64,000 nt of DNA from Thermodesulfobacteriota bacterium (GTDB lineage: Bacteria; Desulfobacterota; RBG-13-43-22): the NCBI GenBank assembly GCA_040755035.1, contig JBFMBU010000082.1:25464-89463 (forward strand), read 5' to 3'. Numbering within the stretch: position 1 is the first letter of the stretch; each line of letters begins with the position of its first letter. Below the pieces are notes generated by a model, which saw only the letters and a list, made by a program, of their open reading frames with translations, did not search any database and had not been told where the DNA came from. Below are positions 2,115 through 37,859 of this stretch, one piece after another. Made by a program: the position numbers and the translations under genes.

Positions 2115-3083
2115 TTAATCGGCGTATACGCCGGCTTTTTTAAGGATCGGTCCCCATTTGTCGGTTTCAGCTTTTAAATGTTTGCGCAAGGCCTCCGGAT
2201 TGGCCCGATCATCACCAACCGGTTCGGTGCCCAGATCGGCAAAACGTTGTTTGACCATCGGGTCTTTCAAGGCCACCTGCAAGGCTTTGGTCAACTTGTC
2301 GATGATCGGTTTTGGTGTTCCTTTAGGGGCGTAGAGGGCATGCCAAATGGAAACTTCAAAGCCCTTCAGACCGGCTTCATCCATGGTTGGGACATTGGGA
2401 AGAGAAGGCACCCTTTTTTTAGTAGTGACGCCATAGACCTTGATTTTTCCCGCTCGGATCTGACTGGTAGTATTGGTGGTCTGATCACACATAAAATCGA
2501 CCTGCCCGCCGAGCAAGTCATTCATGGCCGGGCCGGTGCCTTTATAGGGGATCGTGGTCAGATCGGTCCCGATAGCCGTCATGAAGAGGGTACCGCATAA
2601 ATGAGAGGCTGCCCCGAGACCGGCATTGGCCAGATTTACTTTATCTTTATTGGTCTTCACGTAGGCAATCAGTTCCTTTAAATTACCGGCGGGAAAATCT
2701 TTTTTGGCCACAAAGGTCATGGGTACTTCATTTACCAGGCCGATGGGTTCAAAATCGTTGATGGGACTATAGGGGAGCTTACGATAAAGGGCCGGGGCCG
2801 TGGCCATGCCGATATGATGTAAAAACAGGGTATATCCATCCGGGGCCGATTTGGCCGCTCGGTTGGCCCCGACCGTTCCACCGGCGCCGTCAACGTTCTC
2901 GACAATGACCTGAGCGTTTAAGGCCTTGGACATGGGTGCGGCAATTAAACGGGTGACCGTGTCCGTAGGACCGCCGGCAGTAAAGGGGACGATGATCGAG
3001 ATCACCTTGGTCGGATAATCTGCCGCTCCTGCATTAGTGAACAATAAAAGGATACACGCCAGGGCTAAAAAGAACTTTTTCAT
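2115..3083 (-). CDS. tctC: Tripartite tricarboxylate transporter substrate-binding protein TctC (Bug family)
   Basis: 322 aa with a signal peptide. Bug/TctC-like sequence throughout (VISIIVPFTAGGPTDTVTRLIA...). Forms an operon with tctBA. Confidence 0.85.
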   Translation of the reverse strand: MKKFFLALACILLLFTNAGAADYPTKVISIIVPFTAGGPTDTVTRLIAAPMSKALNAQVIVENVDGAGGTVGANRAAKSAPDGYTLFLHHIGMATAPALYRKLPYSPINDFEPIGLVNEVPMTFVAKKDFPAGNLKELIAYVKTNKDKVNLANAGLGAASHLCGTLFMTAIGTDLTTIPYKGTGPAMNDLLGGQVDFMCDQTTNTTSQIRAGKIKVYGVTTKKRVPSLPNVPTMDEAGLKGFEVSIWHALYAPKGTPKPIIDKLTKALQVALKDPMVKQRFADLGTEPVGDDRANPEALRKHLKAETDKWGPILKKAGVYAD

Positions 3084-3397
3084 GGTTTAACCTCTCCTTT
3101 TCATCTTTTAATAAAAAAATAAAACCGGTCGTTTTATTTTTTGGGACATTCTAAAATTTACCGGCCTGGAGTGTCAAGGAGAAAAATGAGGGTTTCCTTT
3201 TTTCCCTTGACCGAGCTCGGCGATTTTTCTATACATTTACCTTTCATTCCATTTATAATAAAAATAATAAGTTTCAAAAATTGGTTTTTTGCCGATTAGA
3301 AAGGGTAAAAAACCGCGCCAACCGGTAATAGCGGAAGGGTCAGCCGACCATTTTCCGGTTGAAAACTCTGAAAAAAGAAAAGACAATGAGGTGGAAA

Positions 3398-4369
3398 ATG
3401 ACAAAGGAAAAATTTGGGATAAAGTATGTGGGAATGGTGACCATTCTATTGTTTTTAGTAACCCTGGTTGCCGGTGAGGTCTGGGCCAGGGCCGGAGGAG
3501 GACGGTCCGGCGGCTTCCGGGGCAGTCGCTCCTTTTCGGCGCCAAGAACCCAGTCCCCGGGGACCTCTCCCTTTCAGCGTAGTGTTCAGCCTCCTCCCGG
3601 GAATATGGCCAATCAACCCTATTCCCAACCCGGCGGAAGTCCCTTTCTGAGGGGTCTGGCCGGCGGGTTAGCCGGGGGCTTCCTGGGAAGTCTGCTGTTT
3701 GGCGGTATGGGCCGGGCTTCAGGAGCCGGTTGGGGATCCGGCGGATCGGGAATAGGATTTTTGGAAATTATCCTGATTTTGGCCGTGGTTTTTTTTCTTT
3801 TCCGGTTTATCCGCAACAGAAAAAAAAACTCCCTTAACCAGAACCCGTATTCCGATTATGCACCCCCTCCCTATCAACAAGCAGGGGCTTTTTCCCCCAA
3901 CGTATCCGCAGGGGATCAGGAGGTGGAAACCGGTATAGCCCACATTCAATCAATGGACCAAACCTTCGATTCCACTGCTTTCAAAGATTGGGTACAGGAT
4001 GTCTTTTTCAAGATCCAAGCCGCCTGGGGAAATCAGGATTTAGGGCCGGTCAGTCCCCTTTTAACCACAGAAATGCAGGAGATTTTTTCCAAGGACCTGG
4101 AAGGGCAGAAAGCGGCCAATCGCATCAACCGACTGGAAAATATCGCTGTCCGTTCAGTAGAGATCACCGAAGCCTGGCAGGAAGAGGGTAATGACTTTAT
4201 CACGGTCCTATTTTACGCCAATCTGGTGGACTACACCCTTGATAAAACCAGCGGCGCCGTACTTTCCGGAAGCAAAACCGATCCGGTCAAATTCAGGGAA
4301 TTTTGGACCTTCTTGCGACCTGTCGGCAAAGGCCCCTGGAAATTAAGCGCCATTCAGCAGGAGAACTGA
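3398..4369 (+). CDS. Tim44-like domain membrane protein
   Basis: N-terminal transmembrane segment, a Gly/Ser/Pro low-complexity linker, a second transmembrane segment, then a C-terminal domain resembling the Tim44-like fold. Start chosen at ATG 3398, which is preceded by GAGGTG; the ORF could also start at 3359 or 3386. Confidence 0.55.
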   Translation: MTKEKFGIKYVGMVTILLFLVTLVAGEVWARAGGGRSGGFRGSRSFSAPRTQSPGTSPFQRSVQPPPGNMANQPYSQPGGSPFLRGLAGGLAGGFLGSLLFGGMGRASGAGWGSGGSGIGFLEIILILAVVFFLFRFIRNRKKNSLNQNPYSDYAPPPYQQAGAFSPNVSAGDQEVETGIAHIQSMDQTFDSTAFKDWVQDVFFKIQAAWGNQDLGPVSPLLTTEMQEIFSKDLEGQKAANRINRLENIAVRSVEITEAWQEEGNDFITVLFYANLVDYTLDKTSGAVLSGSKTDPVKFREFWTFLRPVGKGPWKLSAIQQEN

Positions 4370-4498
4370 TCGTTCATATCCCTCCGCTTATTCAATCAAG
4401 TCCGCTCAGGATTGATGGCGGCGATTGGAAAAATAGGAATAAAAAAGGAGGCTCGTCGAACTGCCGGGCCTCCTTTTGAGTAAAGTAAGGGTTAGGGG

Positions 4499-5029
4499 TT
4501 AAAACCGGGGACCGCCTCCTTGGCCGAACCCCCGTCCAGGGCCTTGCCCAAAACCGCCACCTTGTCCGGGACCGGCGCAGGGACCTTGACCCCGCATCTT
4601 ATGCCGGCCCCTTCCGTAACCCATTCCGCCAGCAAAGGTCCCTATCTGGGCCGCCTGTTCCGGAGTCAAAACTTTTCGCACCTCAAGCCGGGCGTCGGTA
4701 GCCTTGGCCTGCATCTTATCCCGCAGGGCGTTTAATTCCTTCTGCTTGACCAGGATCTTATCCCGATCCGGGCTGGGAGAGGTCCAGAGGGTTCGAAGTT
4801 CCAACCTTTTGGTCTGCATTTCATTGCGCAGGGAAACGGTATCCTTCCAGTGTTTTTCCCGGAGGTCCTCCAGTTTGGTTTTCTGGTCCGGGGTCAGGTT
4901 TAAACGGTCCCCCCAGGCCGGACAATTTGTGTTTTTACCCAGACCATACCCCGGTCCGGCCGCAAAGGCTGTTCCGGTCAGGGCTGCTAAGGCCAATCCA
5001 ACAACACAACTTTTTACAATTTTTTTCAT
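4499..5029 (-). CDS. Periplasmic Spy/CpxP-family (LTxxQ) stress protein
   Basis: Signal peptide, LTPDQ/LTPEQ motifs, a coiled helical hairpin, and a Gly-rich C-terminal tail. Confidence 0.65.
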   Translation of the reverse strand: MKKIVKSCVVGLALAALTGTAFAAGPGYGLGKNTNCPAWGDRLNLTPDQKTKLEDLREKHWKDTVSLRNEMQTKRLELRTLWTSPSPDRDKILVKQKELNALRDKMQAKATDARLEVRKVLTPEQAAQIGTFAGGMGYGRGRHKMRGQGPCAGPGQGGGFGQGPGRGFGQGGGPRF

Positions 5030-28063: not shown

Positions 28064-28468
28064 TTAATAATCATTCTTCTTTTCTATAGAAACCCATCTC
28101 GGTGCTGATCGTGTCCCCAAGTTATGGATAACTCTTTTGTCTCTCAACTCCATAATTAAGTTGTGGATCAGGGCGTATTTTTGCTCTCCGGTTAAAATTT
28201 CGGGTAATTTGTCAAATATAAGATGATTAATCTCTTTTCTCGAAACAGGCCCATGTTCTCGGATCAATTCCAAAATCAAATCCTTATAATACTTCCGATC
28301 AAGACCTCTGGTTCTGATGTGTTGGGCCTGCTTGCCTATAACCTTTGCAATTTTTGCGCTGATATATATATTTGGATATCTTCCTTCAACCAGACTGAGT
28401 TTTTTCAACCGTTGATGAGCCTCTCGCTCGATTCGGATTCCTTTTTGGACCTTGTCCAACGGGATCAC
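28064..28468 (-). pseudogene. C-terminal wHTH fragment of a degraded COG2865-like (AlbA_2/HATPase_c_4/HTH) regulator
   Basis: 134-aa winged-helix-like tail. Lies 118 bp and one frame away from the 28586..29050 fragment. The N-terminal AlbA_2 (Schlafen-like) domain of the family is absent. Confidence 0.4.
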
Positions 28469-28585: not shown

Positions 28586-29050
28586 CTAATTGGGCATTCC
28601 ACCTTTCTGTCTTTGTAAATACCTGACCGATCTTCCCTTCCCCTCCTTGATAAAAAGCCCCTTTTCAACCAATTCTATAAGATCTTTTAGGGATTGACGG
28701 CGGCTTATTTCACATAGCTTTTGATAATCACGGTTCGTGATATACCCGTGTTGCCTGGTATATTCAAGTCCCTTCTTCTGCCGTTCATTAAATTTTTGTT
28801 CTGTTGGCAGTGAAATTATTTTTTCGGGCTTTATAAAACGGGCCATAAAGAAACCAGATTCTGAGAAAAATTCCAGCTTAATACCAGTCCCAGCGCAGGC
28901 ATCTGCCATACGTAAGGTTCCGGTTCCCCAATGCTCGATCAATCGTGCCCGATAAAAGGCCAAGGCGATCTTTGGATTGCGAGGGAGCGAAGGGTGTTCT
29001 CGATAAAGGCTCTCAACGGAGAGGGTAGGCGGTAAGGTGCCGGGTTTCAA
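28586..29050 (-). pseudogene. HATPase_c_4 (RecG-C-terminal-like) + wHTH fragment of a COG2865-like regulator
   Basis: LIEHWGTGTLRM signature of the HATPase_c_4 family followed by a wHTH. The ORF is N-terminally truncated relative to full-length family members. Confidence 0.5.
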
Positions 29051-29106: not shown

Positions 29107-29691
29107 TTACCATTTTTTAGCGATTGAAACTGGAAGCCCTACTCGCATAAAAAATCGAGCAAAAGCTTGGGATAAATGCTCTCTGTAGGGTGGGAGTAAT
29201 CGAAATCTAGGGACATTTCGTTGTTGAAGCAACGATTCTAAAAATTGACGTGGAAGGTTAAAGACCTCTCGAAAGTCAACAATTCGAGTTTCGATATTCT
29301 GTTTCCCCAATTTGCATTCATTTATCATTGAAAAATTCCATATAAAGCCATCACAAATGCCATCGCATTGGGCTTTCCATGCTTTATCTGTTGGATTCTG
29401 AGTCCGGTTCTTCATTTCTGCTTCCCAGTCCTTCTTATATTCCGAGAGTGAAATGTGGGAGCAAAGAATTACATTGGGGACTTTATTCTGTTCAAGATCA
29501 CAGGCTTGTGTCATAACAACAACATCTGCAATGATCGATATAATAGCGTTTGATAGTACCTCTGCTTCTAAGCTGCCTTTCAAAGCCAAATTACCGGCCT
29601 CCCAAGTAACAATTGGGCAATTTGCAATAATATCCCCCTGAGTTAGAGGCCTATCAGCATCTACTATTTCGTACCACTGATTATTCATCAA
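29107..29691 (-). CDS. Hypothetical protein (island operon gene 3)
   Basis: 194 aa with no recognisable family. Its start overlaps the stop of the upstream gene by 11 bp. AT-rich codon usage. Confidence 0.5.
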   Translation of the reverse strand: MMNNQWYEIVDADRPLTQGDIIANCPIVTWEAGNLALKGSLEAEVLSNAIISIIADVVVMTQACDLEQNKVPNVILCSHISLSEYKKDWEAEMKNRTQNPTDKAWKAQCDGICDGFIWNFSMINECKLGKQNIETRIVDFREVFNLPRQFLESLLQQRNVPRFRLLPPYREHLSQAFARFFMRVGLPVSIAKKW

Positions 29692-30187
29692 TATCCTTCA
29701 TTATTCGGCTGCTGATTTCAATAAAAGGCTTCCAGCGAGGTAAATCATAAGTTTTTAGTGTTATTTTTTTCGAAAATAGCACGGTTCTTTTATGTGGAGG
29801 GGTGATGACCCTAAGCTGAGCCTCTGGTTCTGATTCCTCTGTTTGACAGGTTTGTGAGGAAGGCAAACAAGAAGTTATTGTAACTTGAGATTGTTCAAGC
29901 TGTTCTTCTGTGGCTTCGTATATCATATGAGGTCTCATTATTATTTCAGAAGGATTAAAACTACTCTCCTTCCCCCAATAATATTTTTCCCGTTTATGGG
30001 TTAATGAAAAAGTGGGGGCCAATGCCTTATCTCGATCTGAAAAAATAACGACAGGTGTGTTCTGTTTATTAGATTCTTCCCTTGAATTCGTTTTTAACAG
30101 AATAGGAAGGATAGCAAATGAGGTGGTAGTGGAATTAAAGTTATATTCTATCTCAGAATAAGAATACATATCTATAATTTCCTCCAT
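29681..30187 (-). CDS. Hypothetical protein (island operon gene 2)
   Basis: 168 aa with no recognisable family. Overlaps both neighbouring genes. Confidence 0.5.
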   Translation of the reverse strand: MEEIIDMYSYSEIEYNFNSTTTSFAILPILLKTNSREESNKQNTPVVIFSDRDKALAPTFSLTHKREKYYWGKESSFNPSEIIMRPHMIYEATEEQLEQSQVTITSCLPSSQTCQTEESEPEAQLRVITPPHKRTVLFSKKITLKTYDLPRWKPFIEISSRIMKDIDE

Positions 30188-30993
30188 ATTTTCTTTTGTA
30201 TCTCTTCACTTGTCAAATCTGCAAATCCACGAACGATCCATTCCCTGGCGAGGTCAAACCAGGACCACATTCTTTCAATCGATTTATCCTTTCCAATCCC
30301 CCTTACGGTTGATTCCATCATTATAATCGGAACATTAACATCCCGTGATACTCCATTGCGGATTTTAATGTGCAACCGTCCCGACTGATTTGGCAGAACA
30401 AAAGTAGTATTCCAATTGATTCCCTCTGGTTCTGGGAGAAAACGACTGTTTCCTTTTCCAATAATATGGTCCGGGAAAACCTTGCCAATTTCTTTTAAAG
30501 TCGTCCAAAGTTCATTCTGAGATATATGGTTAACGTAAGTCATTTCATATTGGAGAGGTTCTATAGGACCTAAATCGTTTTCTTTTAAAAAAGACTGAAA
30601 ATGCTCCAGACGATCTTTAAATATCGCAATAACCTCATGATACCGAGGATATGCATCATCCGGTCGGACCTTCTTCCAATTATGTAGAAACCGGTCCCTT
30701 TGTATCTGAATAATTCCTCTGCCGTCCGAATGGATAAACCAGATTCGAGGTAACGGTGGTTTGTCACTAAAAGCAAATTGAGCCTCAACTGGTCCTTCAA
30801 ATCGCTCAATAACCGGAGTTAATGGAGGAACTTCCTGGCAATTTGGATATTCACTTTTATACTTCTCCCAAATCACACCCAGGTGTGGAGCAAGCAGGGA
30901 TTCGATTGATTTAAAAAGAACTCCGCAAACCACCTCGATGACCGGGGGATTTTCATAACTGGGGAATTCTGTCTTTTTAATATTCATTTTCAT
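30172..30993 (-). CDS. TIGR04255-like conserved hypothetical protein (island operon gene 1)
   Basis: 273 aa. The N-terminal motif (YENPPVIEVVCGVLF) resembles the uncharacterised TIGR04255 family. Confidence 0.5.
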   Translation of the reverse strand: MKMNIKKTEFPSYENPPVIEVVCGVLFKSIESLLAPHLGVIWEKYKSEYPNCQEVPPLTPVIERFEGPVEAQFAFSDKPPLPRIWFIHSDGRGIIQIQRDRFLHNWKKVRPDDAYPRYHEVIAIFKDRLEHFQSFLKENDLGPIEPLQYEMTYVNHISQNELWTTLKEIGKVFPDHIIGKGNSRFLPEPEGINWNTTFVLPNQSGRLHIKIRNGVSRDVNVPIIMMESTVRGIGKDKSIERMWSWFDLAREWIVRGFADLTSEEIQKKIWRKL

Positions 30994-31126
30994 TTTCCTT
31001 AAAGACTTAACCGGCGTTTATCAATTATATTATACTTTTTCCCTCCAAATATATATATAAATTTAGTCACTACCCTCTCATTTTCAACTCTAAGTTTAAA
31101 AATCTACAATTATAACGCCACAATAT

Positions 31127-31447
31127 TTAAGTTTTATTAGAATATTCAATTAGTTTTATTTCATCAGAAGTTAAGTTATAAAGATCATAGACCAGCCGGT
31201 TGATTTCGGTTTCGAGCTGAGGAACAGAGGGGCTGTCGGGATCGGCCAGGATAGTCTGGACGAGTTTGATGATTGGGGCTTTTTGCTTTTCTGATGCAGG
31301 GAAAACAGGAACACCTCCCACATACATGGGTTTATATTGCAGGAACCCACCGGAACGGGTGGCAGCCTGAAGGCTGATCCACCATTTGCAAAGAAGTGAG
31401 TTTGAAACGGTTAAGAGGTAACGATCCTTTGTCGGGATGATATTTGC
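31127..31447 (-). pseudogene. C-terminal relic (about 107 codons) of a Type IIG/BREX-PglX-like N6-adenine DNA methyltransferase
   Basis: The frame is open from the stop at 31448-31450. It reads ...LLTVSNSLLCKWWISLQAATRSGGFLQYKPMYVGGVPVFPASEKQKAPIIKLVQTILA...EINRLVYDLYNLTSDEIKLIE, which are hallmark C-terminal motifs of these methyltransferases. There is no upstream methyltransferase body. Confidence 0.6.
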
Positions 31448-31632: not shown

Positions 31633-32535
31633 TCATTTGTTTTCCTCTCTAATTCCTGCAGCAAATGAAAGGTTTTTACTTTCAATACATTTTGAAGATT
31701 TAGTCGAAACAAGGTTATTTGTTCGAATATACAACTCGTAAATCAACTCCCAAAATCTGTTTTTTACATCCTTTGATTCTATTTGTAGGCCGCATTGCTC
31801 TGCCTCTTCTCGGTAAATCGGTCTGCCATGTGTTTTGGTTCGCTCTGGTGTTAAAAATATTTTAATTTTATTTATTATTTCATCATTTGAAAATCCATTC
31901 ATCATACCGGAGGCGAGTGTTCTTATTGCAATATCTTCTGCCAAGGATTGGGCTGCCCTAAATTCCTTAATTTCCCTTTCATCATAATTTGCCAATTGCT
32001 GCAAATAAGGCTGCAAATTCCCCTTCTCGTTTACGGCTCTTAAAAATAAGTCGTCATAGCTCTCGATAACGTTATAAACTGAAAATCTTTTAACGGTATT
32101 ACCTTCGGGGATTGTGAGTTGGGGATCAATTGGGCCTAATTCTGATGTTGGCCCCATAATAATCTTGCTTGCCCCAAAACATATCATTGTTGCTGCAGAT
32201 TTTGCCTTTCCTGGTACAATTGCCCAATATTCGTCAGTTCCACTATAGCTCCTGCAGACATTAACTATCCTTTCAGCAGCAAGGCCATCACCACCGGGTG
32301 AATTAATAAATAACGCCAATCCCTTTGTCAGGTCTAGTTTTTGTAAAACCCCTTCTAACATATCAGCATCGGCATCTTCGATCATAACAGGGAACCTAAA
32401 ACTTGTAAAAAAAGAAACCACAGGCCTTTTGAGTTCTTTTTCCAACTGATCAAAAATTATTTGGCGCGTTTCATGCCCTTGGTGTTGTTCCGTTAAAACT
32501 CTCTGAATGACCGGATATGGATTTTCTTTTTTCAT
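31633..32535 (-). CDS. SDH-family Clp-fold serine protease (S49/ClpP-like)
   Basis: 300 aa. Contains LALFINSPGGDGLAAERI, the ClpP/S49 INSPGG-type active-site region. Confidence 0.65.
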   Translation of the reverse strand: MKKENPYPVIQRVLTEQHQGHETRQIIFDQLEKELKRPVVSFFTSFRFPVMIEDADADMLEGVLQKLDLTKGLALFINSPGGDGLAAERIVNVCRSYSGTDEYWAIVPGKAKSAATMICFGASKIIMGPTSELGPIDPQLTIPEGNTVKRFSVYNVIESYDDLFLRAVNEKGNLQPYLQQLANYDEREIKEFRAAQSLAEDIAIRTLASGMMNGFSNDEIINKIKIFLTPERTKTHGRPIYREEAEQCGLQIESKDVKNRFWELIYELYIRTNNLVSTKSSKCIESKNLSFAAGIREENK

Positions 32536-32596: not shown

Positions 32597-32806
32597 TTAA
32601 TTTCCTTCCTGTTTATTATTACCATAAGTTTCAACTAGTTCTATCTCCTCCGGTGTTAGGTTGTAGAGGCCATAGACGAGGTGGTTAATTTCGGTTTCGA
32701 GTTGGGGGACAGAGGGGCTGTCGGGATCGGCCAGGATGGTCTGGACGAGTTTGATGATTGGGGCTTTTTCACTGGCAGCAGCAAATGAGATAATCATCAT
32801 TCCCAT
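32597..32806 (-). pseudogene. Second, shorter copy of the methyltransferase C-terminal relic
   Basis: ASEKAPIIKLVQTILADPDSPSVPQLETEINHLVYGLYNLTPEEIELVE. About 110 bp of DNA (32662-32769) is roughly 93% identical to 31176-31283. Confidence 0.55.
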
Positions 32807-32854: not shown

Positions 32855-35464
32855 TTATTTTGATATTGTTTTTTGTATCAAAGCCCAATCAGTCCCTTTA
32901 GCCATAACGAACAAACATCTTCCCCCGCTTCTTTCAGCCCAAAGCTCCCCTACAACCCTTTTTTCTTTTGAATCATCATTGCTCCAGAGATGTTCTCCTT
33001 TAAATTCCACCACCAATATCCTATCATCCTGTAATTTGGCGATGAAATCGGGATAGAATCGGTCAGTAGAGGTTTGAAGCCAAAAGGATGTATCTCTGCG
33101 ACGTTCTAAATTCCGAACCCAATATTTTATTTGAGGCTGGCTGTCTAAGAATATGGCACAGTCCAATTCTTCCCCTTCGGATTTTAATTCTCCAATTGTT
33201 TTAAAAAAATGCTTTCGGAATTTGAATAAGCCTTCATAATACCAATTGGGGGCATACTTTTCTTCGATAAAACTAAAACAGAGTTCCGAATTAACTTCAA
33301 TCTTAAATGAATCCGGACCGAATAAGCATTGTTGGTAAGCCTTAAGGTTCTGAGAACGGCGGTGGTTTTGAATTTTTGACTCAAAGGCATTCTTTAACCG
33401 AAATTTTTCCCTGGCTAACCGCTCAATGGTTAGATCTCGGTGCTCGATTAGTCCACTGATCCCCTTATGGATGAAAAGACCGGTCTGGGTTTGGGGAATA
33501 TCCGGGTGGGGTATCTGACGGTCGATCCAATTTGCCAATGAGGCCACCGTCCAGCCCGGTTCCGAAGAAAGCCAGTCAAGTTGCTCATGGATTTTATCGA
33601 TAAAATGGACTTCAATCTTTCCTTGATCATCAACATCCAATTCCCCTGTGGACCCTGCAATCCTTTTTGAGGGAAATTCTCCTTCACTTAAAAAAGCGTC
33701 ACATTCAGATAGATTCCAATGAAAGTCCAAGAAGTGGCTTTCTTCAAACACCTCCAATTGATCCTCACTTCGGATCCCCATTAAGGGAATGATAAACTCA
33801 TCTTTCTTTCCTTGAGACGGCACTGACCCGTCGCCCCCCCTTGGTAATCTATCAAAAAGTTGCTTAATCGCGGTCTGATCCTCAAGACTACTCAAAGAAT
33901 TTAGAACACTCTGCCTTTCGGCGGCATTAAGATCTCCGGTTAAGGTCAATTTTCCGGTGCTTTGCTCATAAGATACTACTTGCTGAATTAAAGGAGACAG
34001 TTTTGATAAATCAGGGGGTTGGGAAATCCTTTCGAATAATGGCCCCGGATGGGTCACCCACCTGATTTGTTCATTGGGTATCACAAAATCATTGGCTTCT
34101 ATTCTTTGGAAACCGTTCTCAATGAGGGCATCCTTTAAGGCGTTGGCGGCTTCAATAAATTTAGGAGAGGCGACAAAGGCATAGGCACAATTTAATTCAG
34201 GGTGATTTTTCTTTTTTGCTCCCGGTAAACGGAGGACCCGGCCTAAAATTTGTTCTACCGCGCGGGAAGAACTGATTTCAGCTACGGAGCATAAGATGTA
34301 GGCAAAAGAACAATCCCAACCTTCCTTGAGGGCATACACCGTGATAATAAAACGAATGGGACAGGCAGGGTCAAATAAGTCAACATCATCAATCTGCCGG
34401 GTTTGACCGGTGGCTACGGCAATTTGCTCTTCTGGAATTTTAAAGTCTTCAATCAAACCCTTTCGGAGCGCTTCTACTGATAATGTTTGCTTTTCTTTGC
34501 TCTTAGGTTGAGCTTGTAACAGCACCAGAGGGCGGAGATATTCTCCCGTCAATTTTTCTTCTCTTTTTCCCATCTCCTCCAAGCTGCGCTGCATCTGGAG
34601 GGCTTCGGTAATAACCTCCTGCCAGTCCACATTGGTCGCCAACCTGATTGGAAGCTTTATCATTTCCTGGGTCTTTAGCTCGGCGGCCGACACATGACAC
34701 AAGACGTTACTGGCAAATAGTTCTTGGTCCGGTTTATGAATCATTTCAGGGGTGGCCGTAAACTCAATAATACAGGAAGGATTAAAACGGGCCAGTGTGT
34801 CGAAGGATAGTGGCGTTCGGGCATTATGGGCCTCATCCATAATAACAATGGGTCTCCATAGTCTTAAAACATTGGAAAGGGAATGCTGGAAAGTACTATC
34901 CTCTTCCCTGTCAAGACCTTCCTTAACTTTTTCGGACAAACCGGAAAAATGATGGGAAAGGGCACTGGAGGATTCATAAACCTTTCTGCCTTCTGTGTCC
35001 TCAACACGGAGGGCGGCTAAGGTTGAAACAATGATTGATGTCTCGCCCTCCAAGGTGCTTCTTTGGACATATAAGGCCTCGCTGATATCCATGACCCTGA
35101 CCAATCCTTCAAATTGAGCATCAAGCACTTGGCGGTAGGGATGTTCACGATTCCGTAAGGCAGCCAAGGTTTGGTCTTTAATAGCGTTTGAAGGGACCAG
35201 CCAGAGGCAAACGGCCCGTTCCGTTTGTAAAAAAGATCGTGCAGCAATCCCTAAAGTATGGCAGGCCATTAAGGTCTTTCCGCCGCCGGTAGGGACCCGA
35301 AGGCAAACATAAGGCAATTCAGGAAGTCGAGGAACAGACCGGTAAGGTCTTTCAGTTTGAAGCAGGAAGGCCCTTTTTGCACCCTCCAGGGTTGCCAGGC
35401 CCAAATAGGTCGTTAATTCCTCAAGACTTCGTCTCTGGTATTCTCGAAGTGGAAGCATGTTCAA
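32855..35464 (-). CDS. res: Type III restriction enzyme Res subunit (SF2 helicase + PD-(D/E)xK nuclease)
   Basis: Walker A (VPTGGGKT) and a DEAH box (VIMDEAHN). C-terminal nuclease motif (YPDF...VVEFKGE). Overlaps the end of mod by 4 bp. Confidence 0.85.
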   Translation of the reverse strand: MNMLPLREYQRRSLEELTTYLGLATLEGAKRAFLLQTERPYRSVPRLPELPYVCLRVPTGGGKTLMACHTLGIAARSFLQTERAVCLWLVPSNAIKDQTLAALRNREHPYRQVLDAQFEGLVRVMDISEALYVQRSTLEGETSIIVSTLAALRVEDTEGRKVYESSSALSHHFSGLSEKVKEGLDREEDSTFQHSLSNVLRLWRPIVIMDEAHNARTPLSFDTLARFNPSCIIEFTATPEMIHKPDQELFASNVLCHVSAAELKTQEMIKLPIRLATNVDWQEVITEALQMQRSLEEMGKREEKLTGEYLRPLVLLQAQPKSKEKQTLSVEALRKGLIEDFKIPEEQIAVATGQTRQIDDVDLFDPACPIRFIITVYALKEGWDCSFAYILCSVAEISSSRAVEQILGRVLRLPGAKKKNHPELNCAYAFVASPKFIEAANALKDALIENGFQRIEANDFVIPNEQIRWVTHPGPLFERISQPPDLSKLSPLIQQVVSYEQSTGKLTLTGDLNAAERQSVLNSLSSLEDQTAIKQLFDRLPRGGDGSVPSQGKKDEFIIPLMGIRSEDQLEVFEESHFLDFHWNLSECDAFLSEGEFPSKRIAGSTGELDVDDQGKIEVHFIDKIHEQLDWLSSEPGWTVASLANWIDRQIPHPDIPQTQTGLFIHKGISGLIEHRDLTIERLAREKFRLKNAFESKIQNHRRSQNLKAYQQCLFGPDSFKIEVNSELCFSFIEEKYAPNWYYEGLFKFRKHFFKTIGELKSEGEELDCAIFLDSQPQIKYWVRNLERRRDTSFWLQTSTDRFYPDFIAKLQDDRILVVEFKGEHLWSNDDSKEKRVVGELWAERSGGRCLFVMAKGTDWALIQKTISK

Positions 35465-37152
35465 CTGACCTTGATATCATATGGGATTTGTTTGAAGGTG
35501 ATTCCTTCTTTCCTGAGCCGGGTCTCCCCGATCCGACAACCCTCCCCATAAACAACTTTTGGCCCATCATGCCCGGGTAGGGCTTGAAGGACTTCAAGGG
35601 TCAATATATTACCGCCATTAGGCCGTTTGTCCCCCAGCACTCCATTAAACAAAAGAAAAATGGCCTGACCATTATGGATTCCTAAAAAAGGGGATTTCCC
35701 CTTTACCGTTTTAGGAATCGGCGAACCTGTCTCAGAAAAGAATACATGAGCTGATAGATCGGCAAAAGTAACCGTTGGGCGAATATTTCCGGCCTCATCA
35801 AAAAGCGGCTCCCCAAGCCTGCAATAGCGAAATCCTCCATCAAGTCCCGTGGTGTTCCCATAGCCGTTAACAGCCCTTGTTAGTCTTTGTGCCGTTACCT
35901 TGCGGCAGATGTTTTCATCCATCTCGACCAGGATAAAGCGCCGGTTTCCCCCATCCTCTTTGTTCAGGCCAAGGACAGCATGTCCGGTAGAACCACTGCC
36001 GGCAAAGGAATCAAGAACCAGAGAATCTTTGTCTGTCCCTATTTCTAAAATACGTTTGATCAATCGGGTTGGTTTTGGGGTAATAAAAACGGAGGCCGAA
36101 TCCTCAAAGTCACAAATAGCTACGAGTTCTTTTTTTGCATCCTGTGTATGGCCAACATCCTGGTAGCCCCATAGGGTTTGCGGAACGACACCTTGCTTAA
36201 CTTCGGATAAAAATCTTTTCAACTGCGGAATGGAATCCCCTTTTTTCCCCCACCAAATTCTCTTATCTGCATCAAGTTCAAGGAATTTTTCCTTTGCGTA
36301 TCGCCAGTATGCCCCCTTTGGTGGCCCCTCGATCACGCGTCCAGAAGGGCAGGTAATTGAATAGGTGCCTCTGCTGTAAGGGTTCCTTGCATCTAATCCG
36401 CTCGGTTTCCAAAGACCTCGGGGATCATTGTCTGGGTTTTTATATGCCTTGTCTTGCTTTATGGTTCGAGAGATAAGATTCGGGCGCCAGACATCCGCCG
36501 ACTTCGCATAGACAATGATATAATCATGATCTTCTGAAAAATGTTTTGCCGAATTTTTTGGAGAATAGACTTTTTGCCATATTACGGCTGCAATAAAGTT
36601 TCGCGGTCCAAAAACCTCATCCATCAGCATCCGAAGAGAGGACACTTCATTGTCATCAATACTGATAAAGATTGCCCCGTCCTCTGACAAGAATTCCCTT
36701 AAGAGCGAAAGACGTGGATACATCATGCACAACCATTTGTCGTGCCGGGAAAGATCCTCTGCCTCAGACCCTACCACCTTGCCCAGCCAACGCCTCATTT
36801 CAGGGCTATTGACGGCATCATTGTAAACCCAATTTTCATTGCCGGTATTATAGGGGGGATCGATATAGATACACTTGACCTTTCCGGCATAGAAGGGGAG
36901 CAAAGCCTTGAGGGCCAAAAGGTTATCACCCTGAACCAACAGATTCCCGCTGTCCAGGTCTCCAAGAGAAAGATTTTCTTCGTTATGTAAAAGATGATAG
37001 GGGACCTGACGGTGGTGATTCAAAACCGCCTTTTTCCCGATCCATTCAAGTGTTGGCATTTTATGCCCTTTTATTAAAAATAAATAATCTGAATCGAAAT
37101 ATATTTCATTTATCTTATTGATCGCGGTTTTGAAATATCTCCCCGAGATCAA
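35461..37152 (-). CDS. mod: Type III restriction-modification Mod subunit (N6-adenine DNA methyltransferase)
   Basis: DPPY motif (CIYIDPPYNTG) and an FxGxG region (VLDSFAGSGSTGHA). N-terminus resembles EcoP15I-Mod. The start may instead be MPTLEWIGK at 37056. Confidence 0.85.
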   Translation of the reverse strand: MISGRYFKTAINKINEIYFDSDYLFLIKGHKMPTLEWIGKKAVLNHHRQVPYHLLHNEENLSLGDLDSGNLLVQGDNLLALKALLPFYAGKVKCIYIDPPYNTGNENWVYNDAVNSPEMRRWLGKVVGSEAEDLSRHDKWLCMMYPRLSLLREFLSEDGAIFISIDDNEVSSLRMLMDEVFGPRNFIAAVIWQKVYSPKNSAKHFSEDHDYIIVYAKSADVWRPNLISRTIKQDKAYKNPDNDPRGLWKPSGLDARNPYSRGTYSITCPSGRVIEGPPKGAYWRYAKEKFLELDADKRIWWGKKGDSIPQLKRFLSEVKQGVVPQTLWGYQDVGHTQDAKKELVAICDFEDSASVFITPKPTRLIKRILEIGTDKDSLVLDSFAGSGSTGHAVLGLNKEDGGNRRFILVEMDENICRKVTAQRLTRAVNGYGNTTGLDGGFRYCRLGEPLFDEAGNIRPTVTFADLSAHVFFSETGSPIPKTVKGKSPFLGIHNGQAIFLLFNGVLGDKRPNGGNILTLEVLQALPGHDGPKVVYGEGCRIGETRLRKEGITFKQIPYDIKVS

Positions 37153-37157
37153 TTTGA

Positions 37158-37859
37158 TTACTTATGCAGGGCGTCGCCATATTCCAGAAAAAAATTCTCT
37201 ATCTGCTTCAAACGCCCTCCTTTGTCTGGTATCCCTTTTAAGATGAAGGACAGGTAAATCCGCCAGGCCGAATCCGGCAATTCCATATTGGATTCGGTCC
37301 ATCCGAATATCCAATGGGCAGGGATAATCTTGACAAAACCGGGCCAGTAATGTTGAAAAGCCTTTTCTTCTTCGCACAATAACAAATGATATCCGTAATC
37401 CTCGAGGATGTATTCAAGCCTTGACGGTCTTGGTTCTTCATCATCATCGAAGCCAGCCAAGAAATCCTGGTGGGGATCATCATAAACCAAGCCCTTAAGA
37501 TTTTCGATATCAGGATTTTCTTCGAAGTCTTCCGGAAAATCATAGGCGGGGTGTAACCCATGTGAGTTTTCATAAAACCCGGCATCCCAACCAAGAGAAA
37601 TTCCGGAATAATCTTTGCTGGTAAGAATGTAATCCCTGACCTTCTGCTGATTTTCCGTGAGGTCGATTTCACAATTATAAAGATAAGCATGGAGCCACTC
37701 TTCATAAGGGATTTCCTTATTGAAGTTTCCCTGGTCGTCTTTCGGATAATCGTTAAGACGGTAATCTTTCAGGATCAGCATATCCCTGTAAACCACTTCA
37801 TCCGGATAAGGGACAACCCATCCGTTATTAAGCACTTTTTGGATACGAAAAGATTCCAT
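37158..37859 (-). CDS. Acidic hypothetical protein co-operonic with mod-res
   Basis: 233 aa, very Asp/Glu-rich. Its stop lies 5 bp upstream of the annotated mod start. No recognisable domain. Confidence 0.5.
   Translation of the reverse strand: MESFRIQKVLNNGWVVPYPDEVVYRDMLILKDYRLNDYPKDDQGNFNKEIPYEEWLHAYLYNCEIDLTENQQKVRDYILTSKDYSGISLGWDAGFYENSHGLHPAYDFPEDFEENPDIENLKGLVYDDPHQDFLAGFDDDEEPRPSRLEYILEDYGYHLLLCEEEKAFQHYWPGFVKIIPAHWIFGWTESNMELPDSAWRIYLSFILKGIPDKGGRLKQIENFFLEYGDALHK

What the first reader, a model, noticed from the sequence alone, without database searches (positions are those of the whole stretch)
29107..30993. Tight three-gene operon of unannotatable proteins (TIGR04255-like + 168-aa + 194-aa) inside the island: candidate novel defence module
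The three ORFs overlap at start and stop (30172/30187 and 29681/29691), which implies translational coupling. The first has an N-terminus resembling the uncharacterised TIGR04255 family (YENPPVIEVVCGVLF). The other two match nothing I recognise. The 194-aa protein has a conspicuous LTQGDII...VVVMTQACDL pattern. The operon sits directly beside restriction-modification genes and a protease, which by guilt-by-association suggests an anti-phage function.
Basis: inference. Interest (0 to 1): 0.8.

Follow-up and report, generated by a model that had tools for sequence, protein, structure and literature searches.

The report
Three-gene toxin–antitoxin module with TIGR04255
The three overlapping genes are real and form a widespread, apparently undescribed three-part toxin–antitoxin-like module: a conserved TIGR04255 protein, a fast-evolving two-part adaptor, and a MazF-shaped toxin that related loci swap for HEPN or PIN toxins.

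Summary
Three intact, overlapping minus-strand ORFs lie in a low-GC island next to type III restriction-modification genes and a ClpP-like protease.

- **Gene 1** is a true TIGR04255 member (64 bits, cutoff 30).
- **Gene 2** is acidic and evolves fast. Only its C-terminal ~55 residues are conserved.

The genes co-occur across many phyla. TIGR04255 lies upstream of gene 3 in about 49 of 74 informative species loci. Gene 3 lies downstream of gene 1 in 35 of 53 metagenome loci.

In the other 18 metagenome loci, closely related gene 1 proteins pair with a different middle-protein C-terminus and a different third gene. Most third genes are HEPN, two are PIN, and a few are unidentified. These classes are nested within the gene 1 tree. 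Two-gene forms lack both gene 1 and gene 2's N-terminal extension.

Best reading: this is a tripartite toxin–antitoxin-like module, analogous to toxin–antitoxin–chaperone (TAC) systems, with TIGR04255 as the hub. Anti-phage function is plausible because homologous triads sit in prophage cargo positions. It is untested, and family-wide association with defence genes is weak. I found no literature on TIGR04255.

The parts
30172..30993 (-). Gene 1: TIGR04255-family protein, 273 aa. Proposed conserved hub or partner of the module.
29681..30187 (-). Gene 2: 168-aa acidic middle protein, a proposed bipartite antitoxin or adaptor. It has a variable N-terminal extension (about residues 1-115) with a T-rich motif (NSTTTSF). 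Its conserved C-terminal ~55 residues (...RTVLFSKKITLKTYDLPRWKPFIEISSRIMKDIDE) end in an acidic tail.
   Evidence: ORF. Only the C-terminal domain is conserved. pI 5.35. The N-terminal extension is long only when gene 1 is present. The C-terminal domain HMM is found only in loci with gene 3. The T-rich motif is enriched. Only 2 hits in a 5.8-billion-protein search.
29107..29688 (-). Gene 3: 193-aa proposed toxin or effector with a MazF/Kid/CcdB-type fold. Family-invariant motifs are QGD, TQxCD, one further Cys, and the C-terminal RLLPPYREHLSQAFARFFMRVGLP. An alternative TTG start lies at 29691.
31060..31087 (-). Promoter-like site (TTGAAA-16-TAAATT) in the 133-nt spacer upstream of gene 1. This is a candidate operon promoter with weak evidence.
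   Evidence: Consensus scan only. Such matches are common in this AT-rich region: 25 found against 13 expected.
31130..31441 (-). Remnant of the 3' end of a type IIG restriction-modification gene that travels with the triad in this lineage. It marks the upstream edge of the block shared with a relative.
   Evidence: tblastn of the intact 836-aa type IIG RM of L081 matches its residues 713-816 here at 64% identity. Window 31311-29108 aligns to L081 8381-10581 at 71% DNA identity. PADLOC REase_MTase_IIG C-terminus hit. L081 gene map.

Best explanation
The three genes form a tripartite toxin-antitoxin-like module.

- **Gene 3** is the effector. It is a toxin built on the MazF/CcdB barrel but has its own invariant motifs (QGD, TQxCD, a further Cys, and a nearly invariant 26-residue C-terminal motif). 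Its biochemical target need not be the same as MazF's.
- **Gene 2** is a two-part adaptor. Its conserved acidic C-terminal ~55 residues are specific to gene 3 and are inferred to bind and neutralise it. Its variable N-terminal extension, with a T-rich motif, is inferred to dock on gene 1.
- **Gene 1 (TIGR04255)** is a conserved hub that controls the adaptor, as a stabiliser, sensor or modifying enzyme. Losing that control frees the toxin and stops growth. This could happen on phage infection, as in toxin-antitoxin-chaperone systems.

Shown here: the gene order and overlaps, the folds, the co-occurrence, the swapping of toxins, and the link between the extension and gene 1.

Inferred: toxicity, neutralisation, physical contacts, the trigger, and any anti-phage role.

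For: 2. TA-like anatomy. A small acidic upstream protein (pI ~5.1, about 3.5 Asp/Glu in its last 8 residues) overlaps the toxin start by 8 nt. In the 80 genome loci, every full-length gene 3 with upstream sequence has a small ORF directly upstream, including the diverged subfamilies.

3. Two-gene forms. A short gene 2 (69-111 aa) plus gene 3 exists without gene 1. The N-terminal extension of gene 2 is at least 85 aa (median 124) with gene 1, against a median of 57 without it (p = 3e-7).

4. Co-occurrence. TIGR04255 lies upstream of gene 3 in 47 of 80 species loci by sequence, plus diverged TIGR04255 in L067 and L080. It is also upstream in viral-contig relatives where gene 3 is only 28-36% identical in alignment.

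5. Toxin swapping. Of 53 metagenome loci with room downstream of a close gene 1 homologue, 35 have gene 3 and 18 have a different pair. The third gene is PIN in L143 and L164 (41 and 37 bits against a cutoff of 23.6). In 13 loci it belongs to a class whose profile hits PDB HEPN proteins at E = 1e-4.

6. Interleaving. The gene 1 proteins of these classes are nested within the MazF-class gene 1 diversity. The best cross-class identity is 0.60-0.75, while identity within the MazF class falls to 0.28.

7. Bipartite adaptor. The gene 2 C-domain HMM hits 46 of the 80 metagenome loci and none of the 18 non-MazF loci. A T-rich N-terminal motif is found in 57 of 101 gene 1-linked middle proteins across toxin classes. 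The controls give 6% for neighbour ORFs, 14% for shuffled sequences, and 0 of 19 for short gene 2 proteins without gene 1.

8. Mobile, dispensable behaviour. The distribution is sporadic over many bacterial phyla and archaea. Microcystis carries decayed copies. Neighbours are heterogeneous. Some loci lie among VapBC and TumE TA genes.

9. Precedent. TAC systems use one conserved third protein with several TA families through a variable extension on the antitoxin. They also have two-gene relatives without that extension (PMC5105189). The TAC chaperone acts as the phage sensor (bioRxiv 10.1101/2024.02.24.581848).
Against: - Gene 3 shows no sequence-level similarity to MazF or CcdB. Pfam gives no hit and hhalign probability is below 1%.
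- By my reading of the alignment, the loop between gene 3's first two barrel strands, where MazF carries its catalytic Arg, holds no conserved Arg.
- Gene 3 is not basic (pI ~6), unlike typical MazF RNases.
- Gene 2 has no recognisable DNA-binding domain, which is unusual for a type II antitoxin.
- Gene 1 is not SecB-like. It is also far more conserved (57-70% identity across phyla) than TAC chaperones, which share 14-19% identity between most systems (PMC5105189). That fits a conserved substrate or host partner better than an arms-race sensor.
- The T-rich motif is short and present in only 56% of middle proteins.
- No experiment shows toxicity, neutralisation or binding.
Confidence: 0.55

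Rival explanations
1. Genes 2 and 3 are an ordinary two-gene type II toxin-antitoxin pair. Gene 1 is only a co-transcribed regulator, such as a DNA-binding repressor encoded first in the operon, as omega is in omega-epsilon-zeta or PaaR in paaR-paaA-parE. It would have no contact with gene 2.
For: - Two-gene forms without gene 1 exist.
- Gene 1 is the first gene of the operon.
- Gene 2 has no DNA-binding domain of its own, so a separate regulator would make sense.

The omega and PaaR precedents come from my own knowledge.
Against: - The N-terminal extension of gene 2 appears only together with gene 1.
- It carries a motif shared across toxin classes, which points to a physical or functional link.
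- Gene 1 proteins are acidic (median pI 5.9), unlike typical DNA binders.
- 57-70% identity across phyla is unusual for a repressor that must co-evolve with its operator.
Confidence: 0.15
2. Gene 1 is an enzyme that chemically controls the system, in the manner of type VII toxin-antitoxin systems. It could be a phosphotransferase-like protein that modifies the T-rich segment of gene 2, the toxin, or a small molecule. Gene 2 would then be a substrate or scaffold and not a simple neutraliser.
For: - Many invariant polar residues (E20, E54, E63, R83, Q96, Q98, N105, Q148, E150, N155, R206, R231) lie on the strands of the sheet.
- The very high conservation suits an enzyme.
- A Thr-rich motif in the partner could be a modification site.
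Against: - TBP, glutamine synthetase/GCL and SAM decarboxylase folds also match.
- There is no sequence similarity to any PDB protein.
- No nucleotide-binding motif was identified.
- Two-gene forms work without gene 1.
Confidence: 0.15
3. The module is not a toxin-antitoxin or defence system. It would be a non-toxic regulatory or metabolic complex in which the MazF-like barrel of gene 3 has been reused, for example as a Cys-dependent enzyme or a nucleic-acid-binding protein.
For: - Gene 3 lacks MazF sequence signatures and a conserved Arg in the loop where MazF has its catalytic Arg.
- Its invariant Cys residues and unique C-terminal motif suggest a different chemistry.
- Family-wide neighbours are mostly not defence genes.
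Against: - In sister loci the same position is taken by PIN and HEPN domains, the classic toxin RNases.
- The distribution is sporadic and HGT-like, and Microcystis shows decay and IS disruption.
- Triads occur in prophage cargo positions and among other TA genes.
- Every close fold match is a TA toxin.
Confidence: 0.1

Closest known systems
Toxin-antitoxin-chaperone (TAC) systems: SecB-like chaperone plus HigBA, HicAB, MqsRA or CmdTA
   Same: - Three genes form one operon.
- One conserved third protein serves several unrelated TA families (here MazF-fold, HEPN and PIN).
- The antitoxin carries a variable extension that is present only when the third protein is present.
- Two-gene relatives lack the extension.
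- TAC systems are modular, and their chaperone can act as the phage sensor (PMC5105189; bioRxiv 10.1101/2024.02.24.581848; PMC11618068).
   Different: - The third protein is TIGR04255, with no SecB match in Pfam or NCBIfam and no SecB among the top fold hits.
- It is encoded first, not last.
- The extension is N-terminal, not C-terminal.
- The hub is much more conserved than TAC chaperones.
- The toxins belong to different families.
MazEF / Kis-Kid / CcdAB type II toxin-antitoxin systems
   Same: - Gene 3 shares the toxin fold.
- The upstream partner is small and acidic with an acidic C-terminal tail, and its gene overlaps the toxin gene.
   Different: - No sequence-level membership in PemK, MazF or CcdB families.
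- About 90 extra residues, with unique invariant motifs (QGD, TQxCD, C-terminal PPYREHLSQAFARFFMRVGLP).
- No conserved Arg in the loop where MazF has its catalytic Arg.
- No AbrB, RHH or other DNA-binding domain detected in gene 2.
- A third gene is present.
Panacea (PanA) hyperpromiscuous antitoxin domain and the NetFlax partner-swapping network
   Same: One conserved component is combined through evolution with many unrelated toxin domains, so the toxin end is modular (PMC8832971; PMC10440598).
   Different: - PanA is a domain within the antitoxin itself.
- Here the conserved element is a separate protein, and a bipartite adaptor sits between it and the toxin.
- The NetFlax paper's main text does not mention tripartite or three-gene systems.
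TIGR04255 family (NCBIfam 'sporadTIGR04255', uncharacterised)
   Same: Gene 1 is a member by HMM. More canonical members (62-136 bits) also sit upstream of a middle gene plus a gene 3 relative.
   Different: No function or genomic association has been described for the family in the searchable literature. The link to toxin modules is new here.

Membership tests
TIGR04255 (gene 1) | Score above the curated NCBIfam cutoff over the full-length model | tested here: met
   64.3 bits against a cutoff of 30, covering model positions 2-250 of 252.
MazF/PemK/Kid/CcdB toxin superfamily (gene 3) | SH3-like barrel toxin fold with a C-terminal helix | tested here: met
MazF/PemK/Kid/CcdB toxin superfamily (gene 3) | Sequence-profile membership (Pfam PemK_toxin or CcdB) | tested here: not met
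   No Pfam hit at E < 0.1. hhalign of the family profile against B. subtilis MazF and E. coli CcdB gives probability 0.2%. A profile search of PDB sequences found nothing.
MazF/PemK/Kid/CcdB toxin superfamily (gene 3) | Catalytic Arg in the beta1-beta2 loop and Ser/Thr as in the MazF RNases | tested here: inconclusive
   By my reading of the alignment, no conserved Arg lies in the low-confidence loop (residues 31-49). The only conserved residues there are E44 and L46.
Type II toxin-antitoxin system | Small upstream antitoxin gene overlapping or abutting a downstream toxin gene, with patchy HGT-like distribution | tested here: met
   8-nt overlap. Conserved pairing in 70 of 80 loci by motif, and a middle ORF in the diverged remainder. 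At least 511 species across many phyla.
Type II toxin-antitoxin system | Toxicity of the toxin and neutralisation through a protein-protein complex | not testable with these tools
   Needs expression assays or complex prediction.
Type II toxin-antitoxin system | DNA-binding domain in the antitoxin for autoregulation | tested here: not met
   No HTH, RHH, AbrB or Phd domain in gene 2 by Pfam or NCBIfam. The N-terminal part is variable and low in complexity.
TAC (toxin-antitoxin-chaperone) | SecB-like chaperone as the third component | tested here: not met
   Gene 1 gives no SecB hit in Pfam or NCBIfam. Its nearest folds are phosphagen kinase domains and TBP.
TAC (toxin-antitoxin-chaperone) | Antitoxin extension present only with the third protein, and one third protein serving several TA families | tested here: met
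   Extension length tracks the presence of gene 1. MazF-fold, HEPN and PIN partners are nested within the gene 1 tree. This is a functional analogy only, since the extension is N-terminal here.
Known or candidate anti-phage defence systems (PADLOC-DB v2) | HMM match of any component | tested here: not met
   No hits for genes 1, 2 or 3 at E < 0.1.

The most novel reading that the evidence does not exclude
TIGR04255 proteins define a previously unrecognised, widespread class of three-component toxin-antitoxin or abortive-infection modules. In this class a highly conserved hub, possibly an enzyme with a phosphagen-kinase-like fold, controls bipartite adaptors through a short T-rich N-terminal motif. 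The adaptors in turn hold interchangeable toxins: a new MazF-fold family with a Cys-containing TQxCD motif, HEPN, PIN and others. Prophages carry these modules as anti-phage cargo.
Probability: 0.4. Interest if true: 0.8.

Novelty: new variant of a known kind. Interest (0 to 1): 0.7.

Why it matters
- **TIGR04255 function.** If correct, this gives a first functional context for TIGR04255, a curated but uncharacterised family with no papers in the searchable library.
- **A new toxin family.** It defines a new MazF-fold toxin family of about 1,900 clusters at 50% identity that Pfam, NCBIfam and PADLOC all lack.
- **A second three-part architecture.** It adds a second, independent example of the toxin-antitoxin-chaperone logic: a conserved third protein, an extension on the antitoxin, and a swappable toxin end. 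In TAC systems that layout lets the third protein act as the phage sensor and allows hybrid defence systems to be engineered. A second such scaffold with PIN, HEPN and MazF-fold toxins would make the generality of that design testable.
- **A tractable biochemical question.** The nearly invariant 26-residue C-terminal motif and the conserved cysteines of gene 3 point to a target or chemistry not yet described for this fold.

Tried and rejected
- **Family libraries.** Pfam, NCBIfam, PADLOC and PHROGs scans of genes 2 and 3 gave nothing, apart from gene 3 hitting phrog_4575 of unknown function.
- **PDB sequence searches.** Single-sequence and profile searches for genes 1 and 3 gave nothing meaningful.
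- **hhalign to MazF and CcdB.** No signal, so homology rests on fold only.
- **Gene 2 homologue search.** Only two hits, because it evolves too fast for the word index. I used local jackhmmer on the fetched loci instead.
- **Exact-sequence contig look-up.** The window protein and P0001 are not on record.
- **Plasmids and cultured phages.** No gene 3 match in either collection.
- **General linkage to a type IIG RM gene.** Rejected. The RM of L081 has no homologue in any of the 80 genome loci, so the link is lineage-specific.
- **Defence-island enrichment.** 148 immediate neighbours hit 241 PADLOC families, against 114 for 148 distant ORFs. That is only about 2-fold. The counts are families, not proteins, and they include generic kinases and methyltransferases. 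Pfam shows mostly unrelated neighbours. I judged this weak.
- **Gene 1 as a DNA-binding repressor (TBP-like).** I considered this less likely because of its acidic pI and high conservation.
- **AFDB fold search.** The library was not available.
- **Cys cluster geometry.** I could not measure it because model coordinates are not exposed.
- **Pfam on ten diverse gene 3 relatives.** No domains apart from one ankyrin fusion.
Full report
**1. Observation**

The three minus-strand ORFs are present exactly as described:
- gene 1 at 30172-30993 (273 aa)
- gene 2 at 29681-30187 (168 aa)
- gene 3 at 29107-29691 (194 aa)

Reading the junctions shows two overlaps.
- Gene 1's TAG stop lies 16 nt inside gene 2 if gene 2 starts at its first ATG (MEEII...). 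Homologues keep this MEE(K) start and a 16-19 nt overlap.
- Gene 3 most likely starts at the ATG at 29688 (MNNQWY, 193 aa, as NCBI annotates it). This gives an 8-nt ATGAATAA overlap with gene 2 that recurs in many homologous loci.

The window comes from a 107.8-kb contig of a Thermodesulfobacteriota MAG. The genes lie in a low-GC stretch (about 0.36-0.46 against about 0.52) from roughly 27.9 to 38.1 kb. That stretch also holds:
- type III restriction (32855-35464) and modification (35461-37152) genes
- an SDH/ClpP-like protease (31633-32535)
- two copies of the C-terminal end of a type IIG RM gene
- truncated regulator-like ORFs

**2. The three proteins**

No PDB sequence is related. Homologues are 55-86% identical across distant bacteria and some archaea.

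*Gene 3* has no Pfam, NCBIfam or PADLOC match. It nevertheless belongs to a large family. There are 4,659 clusters at 90% identity within reach of the word-based search. An exhaustive profile search finds 1,908 representatives at 50% identity, nearly all stand-alone proteins of 170-215 aa. Ten diverse members also lack Pfam domains.

Its model (pLDDT 85.1, pTM 0.79) matches only toxins of toxin-antitoxin systems.
- Foldseek independently lists only MazF-family chains at the top (probability 1.0, TM 0.58-0.67 normalised to the target).

There is no sequence-level similarity, so the link is at the level of fold or superfamily. Gene 3 is about 90 residues longer than MazF.

Down to 28% identity the family keeps W5, Q17-G18-D19, Q61-x-C63-D64, C76 and G114. 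It also keeps an almost invariant C-terminal stretch, RLRLLPPYREHLSQAFARFFMRVGLP. That stretch holds 15 of the 24 invariant residues. By my reading of the alignment, no Arg is conserved in the loop where MazF carries its catalytic Arg. The chemistry may therefore differ from MazF.

*Gene 2* is the fast-evolving member. The 5.8-billion-protein search found only two relatives. Local iterative searches on the fetched loci show that only its C-terminal ~55 residues are conserved. The consensus is E.E...WRGVF.....RKVLFS..V...T..LPRWKP.I.ID.R..E.DDE. The protein is acidic (pI 5.35; homologue median 5.1) and ends in an acidic tail.

**3. Co-occurrence from the gene 3 side**

A scan of one genome per species found at least 511 species with a gene 3 relative. 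They span Desulfobacterota, Nitrospinota, Cyanobacteria, Planctomycetota, Acidobacteriota, Thermotogota, Bacillota, Omnitrophota and Methanosarcinales. I analysed 80 of these loci.
- Gene 2's C-terminal domain lies directly upstream of gene 3 in 70 of the 80 loci.
- The other ten are a contig end, two decayed copies, and seven diverged loci that still have a 125-157 aa middle ORF with a similar C-terminal pattern.
- Gene 1 lies upstream in 47 loci. L067 and L080 carry diverged but verified TIGR04255 genes. That makes about 49 of 74 loci that have enough upstream sequence.
- The rest are true two-gene forms with a short gene 2 of 69-111 aa.
- In Microcystis a 90-aa ORF fuses the gene 1 N-terminus to the gene 2 C-domain. 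Gene 3 there is intact or, in L073, split by a transposase-like ORF.

The N-terminal extension of gene 2, measured ahead of its conserved domain, is at least 85 aa (median 124) when gene 1 is present. The median is 57 when gene 1 is absent (Mann-Whitney p = 3e-7).

In six viral contigs the alignable gene 3 relatives are only 28-38% identical. A three-gene arrangement recurs in all six. The first gene is a verified canonical TIGR04255 (96-136 bits) in L086, L087 and L088, and L089 carries the same first ORF as L088. L085 and L090 have a different first gene.

**4. Co-occurrence from the gene 1 side, the key result**

A metagenome scan with the gene 1 alignment returned 80 loci with gene 1 53-72% identical. 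Of 53 loci with room downstream, 35 carry gene 3 about 517 nt after gene 1. The other 18 do not.

In those 18, gene 1 is followed by a middle ORF of 190-260 aa and a different third gene.
- In L143 and L164 the third gene is a PIN domain (41 and 37 bits against a cutoff of 23.6).
- In 13 loci it is a 129-147 aa protein. The profile of this class hits PDB HEPN-domain proteins (9xbd and 9xbc, E = 1e-4) through SRAYY...R...DY motifs.
- Three loci have unidentified third genes.

The gene 1 proteins of these classes are nested inside the diversity of the MazF-class gene 1 proteins. The best cross-class identity is 0.60-0.75, whereas MazF-class gene 1 pairs fall as low as 0.28 (median 0.52). A UPGMA ordering interleaves the classes.

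The gene 2 C-domain HMM hits 46 of the 80 metagenome loci and none of the 18 non-MazF loci. The C-terminal half of the middle protein therefore goes with the toxin.

The N-termini behave differently. They share the start that overlaps gene 1 and a T-rich motif such as ATTS or TTTT about 26 residues in. The motif is found in:
- 57 of 101 distinct gene 1-linked middle proteins across classes
- 6% of control ORFs
- 14% of shuffled sequences
- 0 of 19 short gene 2 proteins without gene 1

**5. Interpretation**

The data fit a tripartite toxin-antitoxin-like module with three parts:
- a toxin, which is gene 3 here and PIN or HEPN elsewhere
- a bipartite adaptor or antitoxin, whose C-terminal domain is toxin-specific and whose N-terminal extension is linked to gene 1
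- a conserved hub, TIGR04255

The closest functional precedent is the toxin-antitoxin-chaperone (TAC) family. In TAC a SecB-like chaperone serves HigBA, HicAB and MqsRA pairs through a variable 'chaperone addiction' extension on the antitoxin, and two-gene relatives lack that extension (PMC5105189). The chaperone HigC senses a phage tail protein, and toxin-antitoxin units can be exchanged between systems (bioRxiv 10.1101/2024.02.24.581848; PMC11618068).

Membership in TAC fails, because gene 1 is not SecB-like and the extension is N-terminal. The resemblance is one of logic, not ancestry.

Two rival roles for gene 1 remain open.
- It could be a separate transcriptional regulator. I find this less likely, given the link to the extension, the acidic pI of 5.9 and the high conservation.
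- It could be an enzyme. This is suggested by the kinase-like fold matches, the many invariant polar residues on the sheet, and conservation far above that of TAC chaperones.

**6. Defence reading**

Locally the association is real. Window 31311-29108 is collinear with a relative, L081, at 71% DNA identity. The shared block starts inside the 3' end of an intact 836-aa type IIG RM gene that directly precedes the triad in L081. The window retains only a remnant of that gene, at 31130-31441.

The linkage is lineage-specific, because none of the 80 genome loci has that RM gene. Family-wide, the immediate neighbours are heterogeneous. PADLOC family hits are only about 2-fold more numerous near the module than 5.5-10 kb away. 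Some loci lie among VapBC and TumE TA genes and an IS110 element.

Independent support comes from cultured temperate phages.
- Pseudomonas phage Dobby is P2-like. It carries TIGR04255, a 109-aa ORF, and a 199-aa protein that is a remote homologue of gene 3's core (hhalign probability 93%, E = 2.5e-7). The trio lies between the integrase end of the genome and the portal gene.
- Phage VW-6S carries a similar trio just after the cI repressor gene. The hhalign link for its third gene is weak (probability 12%).
- In E. coli P2-like phages the portal-proximal region is a documented hotspot of anti-phage systems (PMC9122126).

Anti-phage function is therefore plausible but not shown.

**7. Novelty**

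I found no paper in the searchable library that mentions TIGR04255. Pfam, NCBIfam and PADLOC lack gene 3 and gene 2. The main text of the large TA network study does not mention tripartite or three-gene systems.

I rate this a new variant of a known kind. Tripartite TA-like modules with swappable toxins are known, but this hub family and this MazF-fold toxin family are not. The library does not cover subscription-only papers, so I cannot exclude an earlier description.

**8. Limits**

- All functional statements are inferences from comparative genomics and predicted structures.
- ORF calls in the fetched loci are mechanical, and some start sites in high-GC genomes are over-extended.
- The T-rich motif is short.
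- The neighbour analysis counts families rather than proteins.

Noticed in passing
window 31127-31327 and 32597-32806 (repeat 31127-31284 / 32612-32769); remnant extends to 31441: Two copies (82% identical over 158 nt) of the 3' end of a type IIG restriction-modification gene bracket the SDH/ClpP-like protease gene. This looks like repeated recombination at the RM gene's 3' end, which may act as a swap point for downstream cargo cassettes.
   Followed up: partly
window 31633-32535 (-): A 300-aa SDH-type ClpP-fold serine protease (Pfam SDH_protease 46.6 bits) sits between the two RM-tail copies, downstream of the type III res gene. Its role in the island is unknown.
   Followed up: no
window 32855-37859 (-): An apparently intact type III RM system: res is 869 aa (PADLOC REase_III, E = 1e-133) and mod is 563 aa. 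It is preceded by an unknown 233-aa ORF (37158-37859) with no family match.
   Followed up: no
window 28064-28468 (-) and 28586-29050 (-): Two short ORFs just downstream of gene 3 look like C-terminal pieces of regulator or Abi-type genes. One has HATPase_c_4 plus an HTH and lacks its N-terminal part. The other has weak AbiA C-terminal similarity. They may be remnants cut by the arrival of the triad block.
   Followed up: no
L020, L025, L027, L073 (Microcystis): Decayed modules. A 90-aa ORF joins the first ~20 residues of gene 1 to the gene 2 C-terminal domain, while gene 3 stays intact. In L073 a 332-aa transposase-like ORF splits gene 3. The antitoxin-like domain is kept wherever the toxin is intact.
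   Followed up: partly
L172 (phage Dobby MK034952.1) 1090-2786; L171 (phage VW-6S MF975720.1) 3001-4641: Cultured temperate Pseudomonas phages carry TIGR04255, a short gene, and a ~199-aa protein with QGD and SNSCDI motifs. These third proteins lack the PPYRE...GLP C-terminal motif of gene 3, so the effector superfamily is broader than the family defined here.
   Followed up: partly
L143 1935-4290 and L164 2341-4180: In the PIN-type versions the triad is directly followed by a long ORF whose sequence I read as a DNA methyltransferase. No family scan was run on it. It would be another local link to restriction-modification genes.
   Followed up: no
L019 8870-9541, L090 4864-5559, L085 5048-5985: Some gene 3 relatives are preceded by first genes that are not TIGR04255 (no NCBIfam hit). 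The hub position may therefore also be exchangeable.
   Followed up: no
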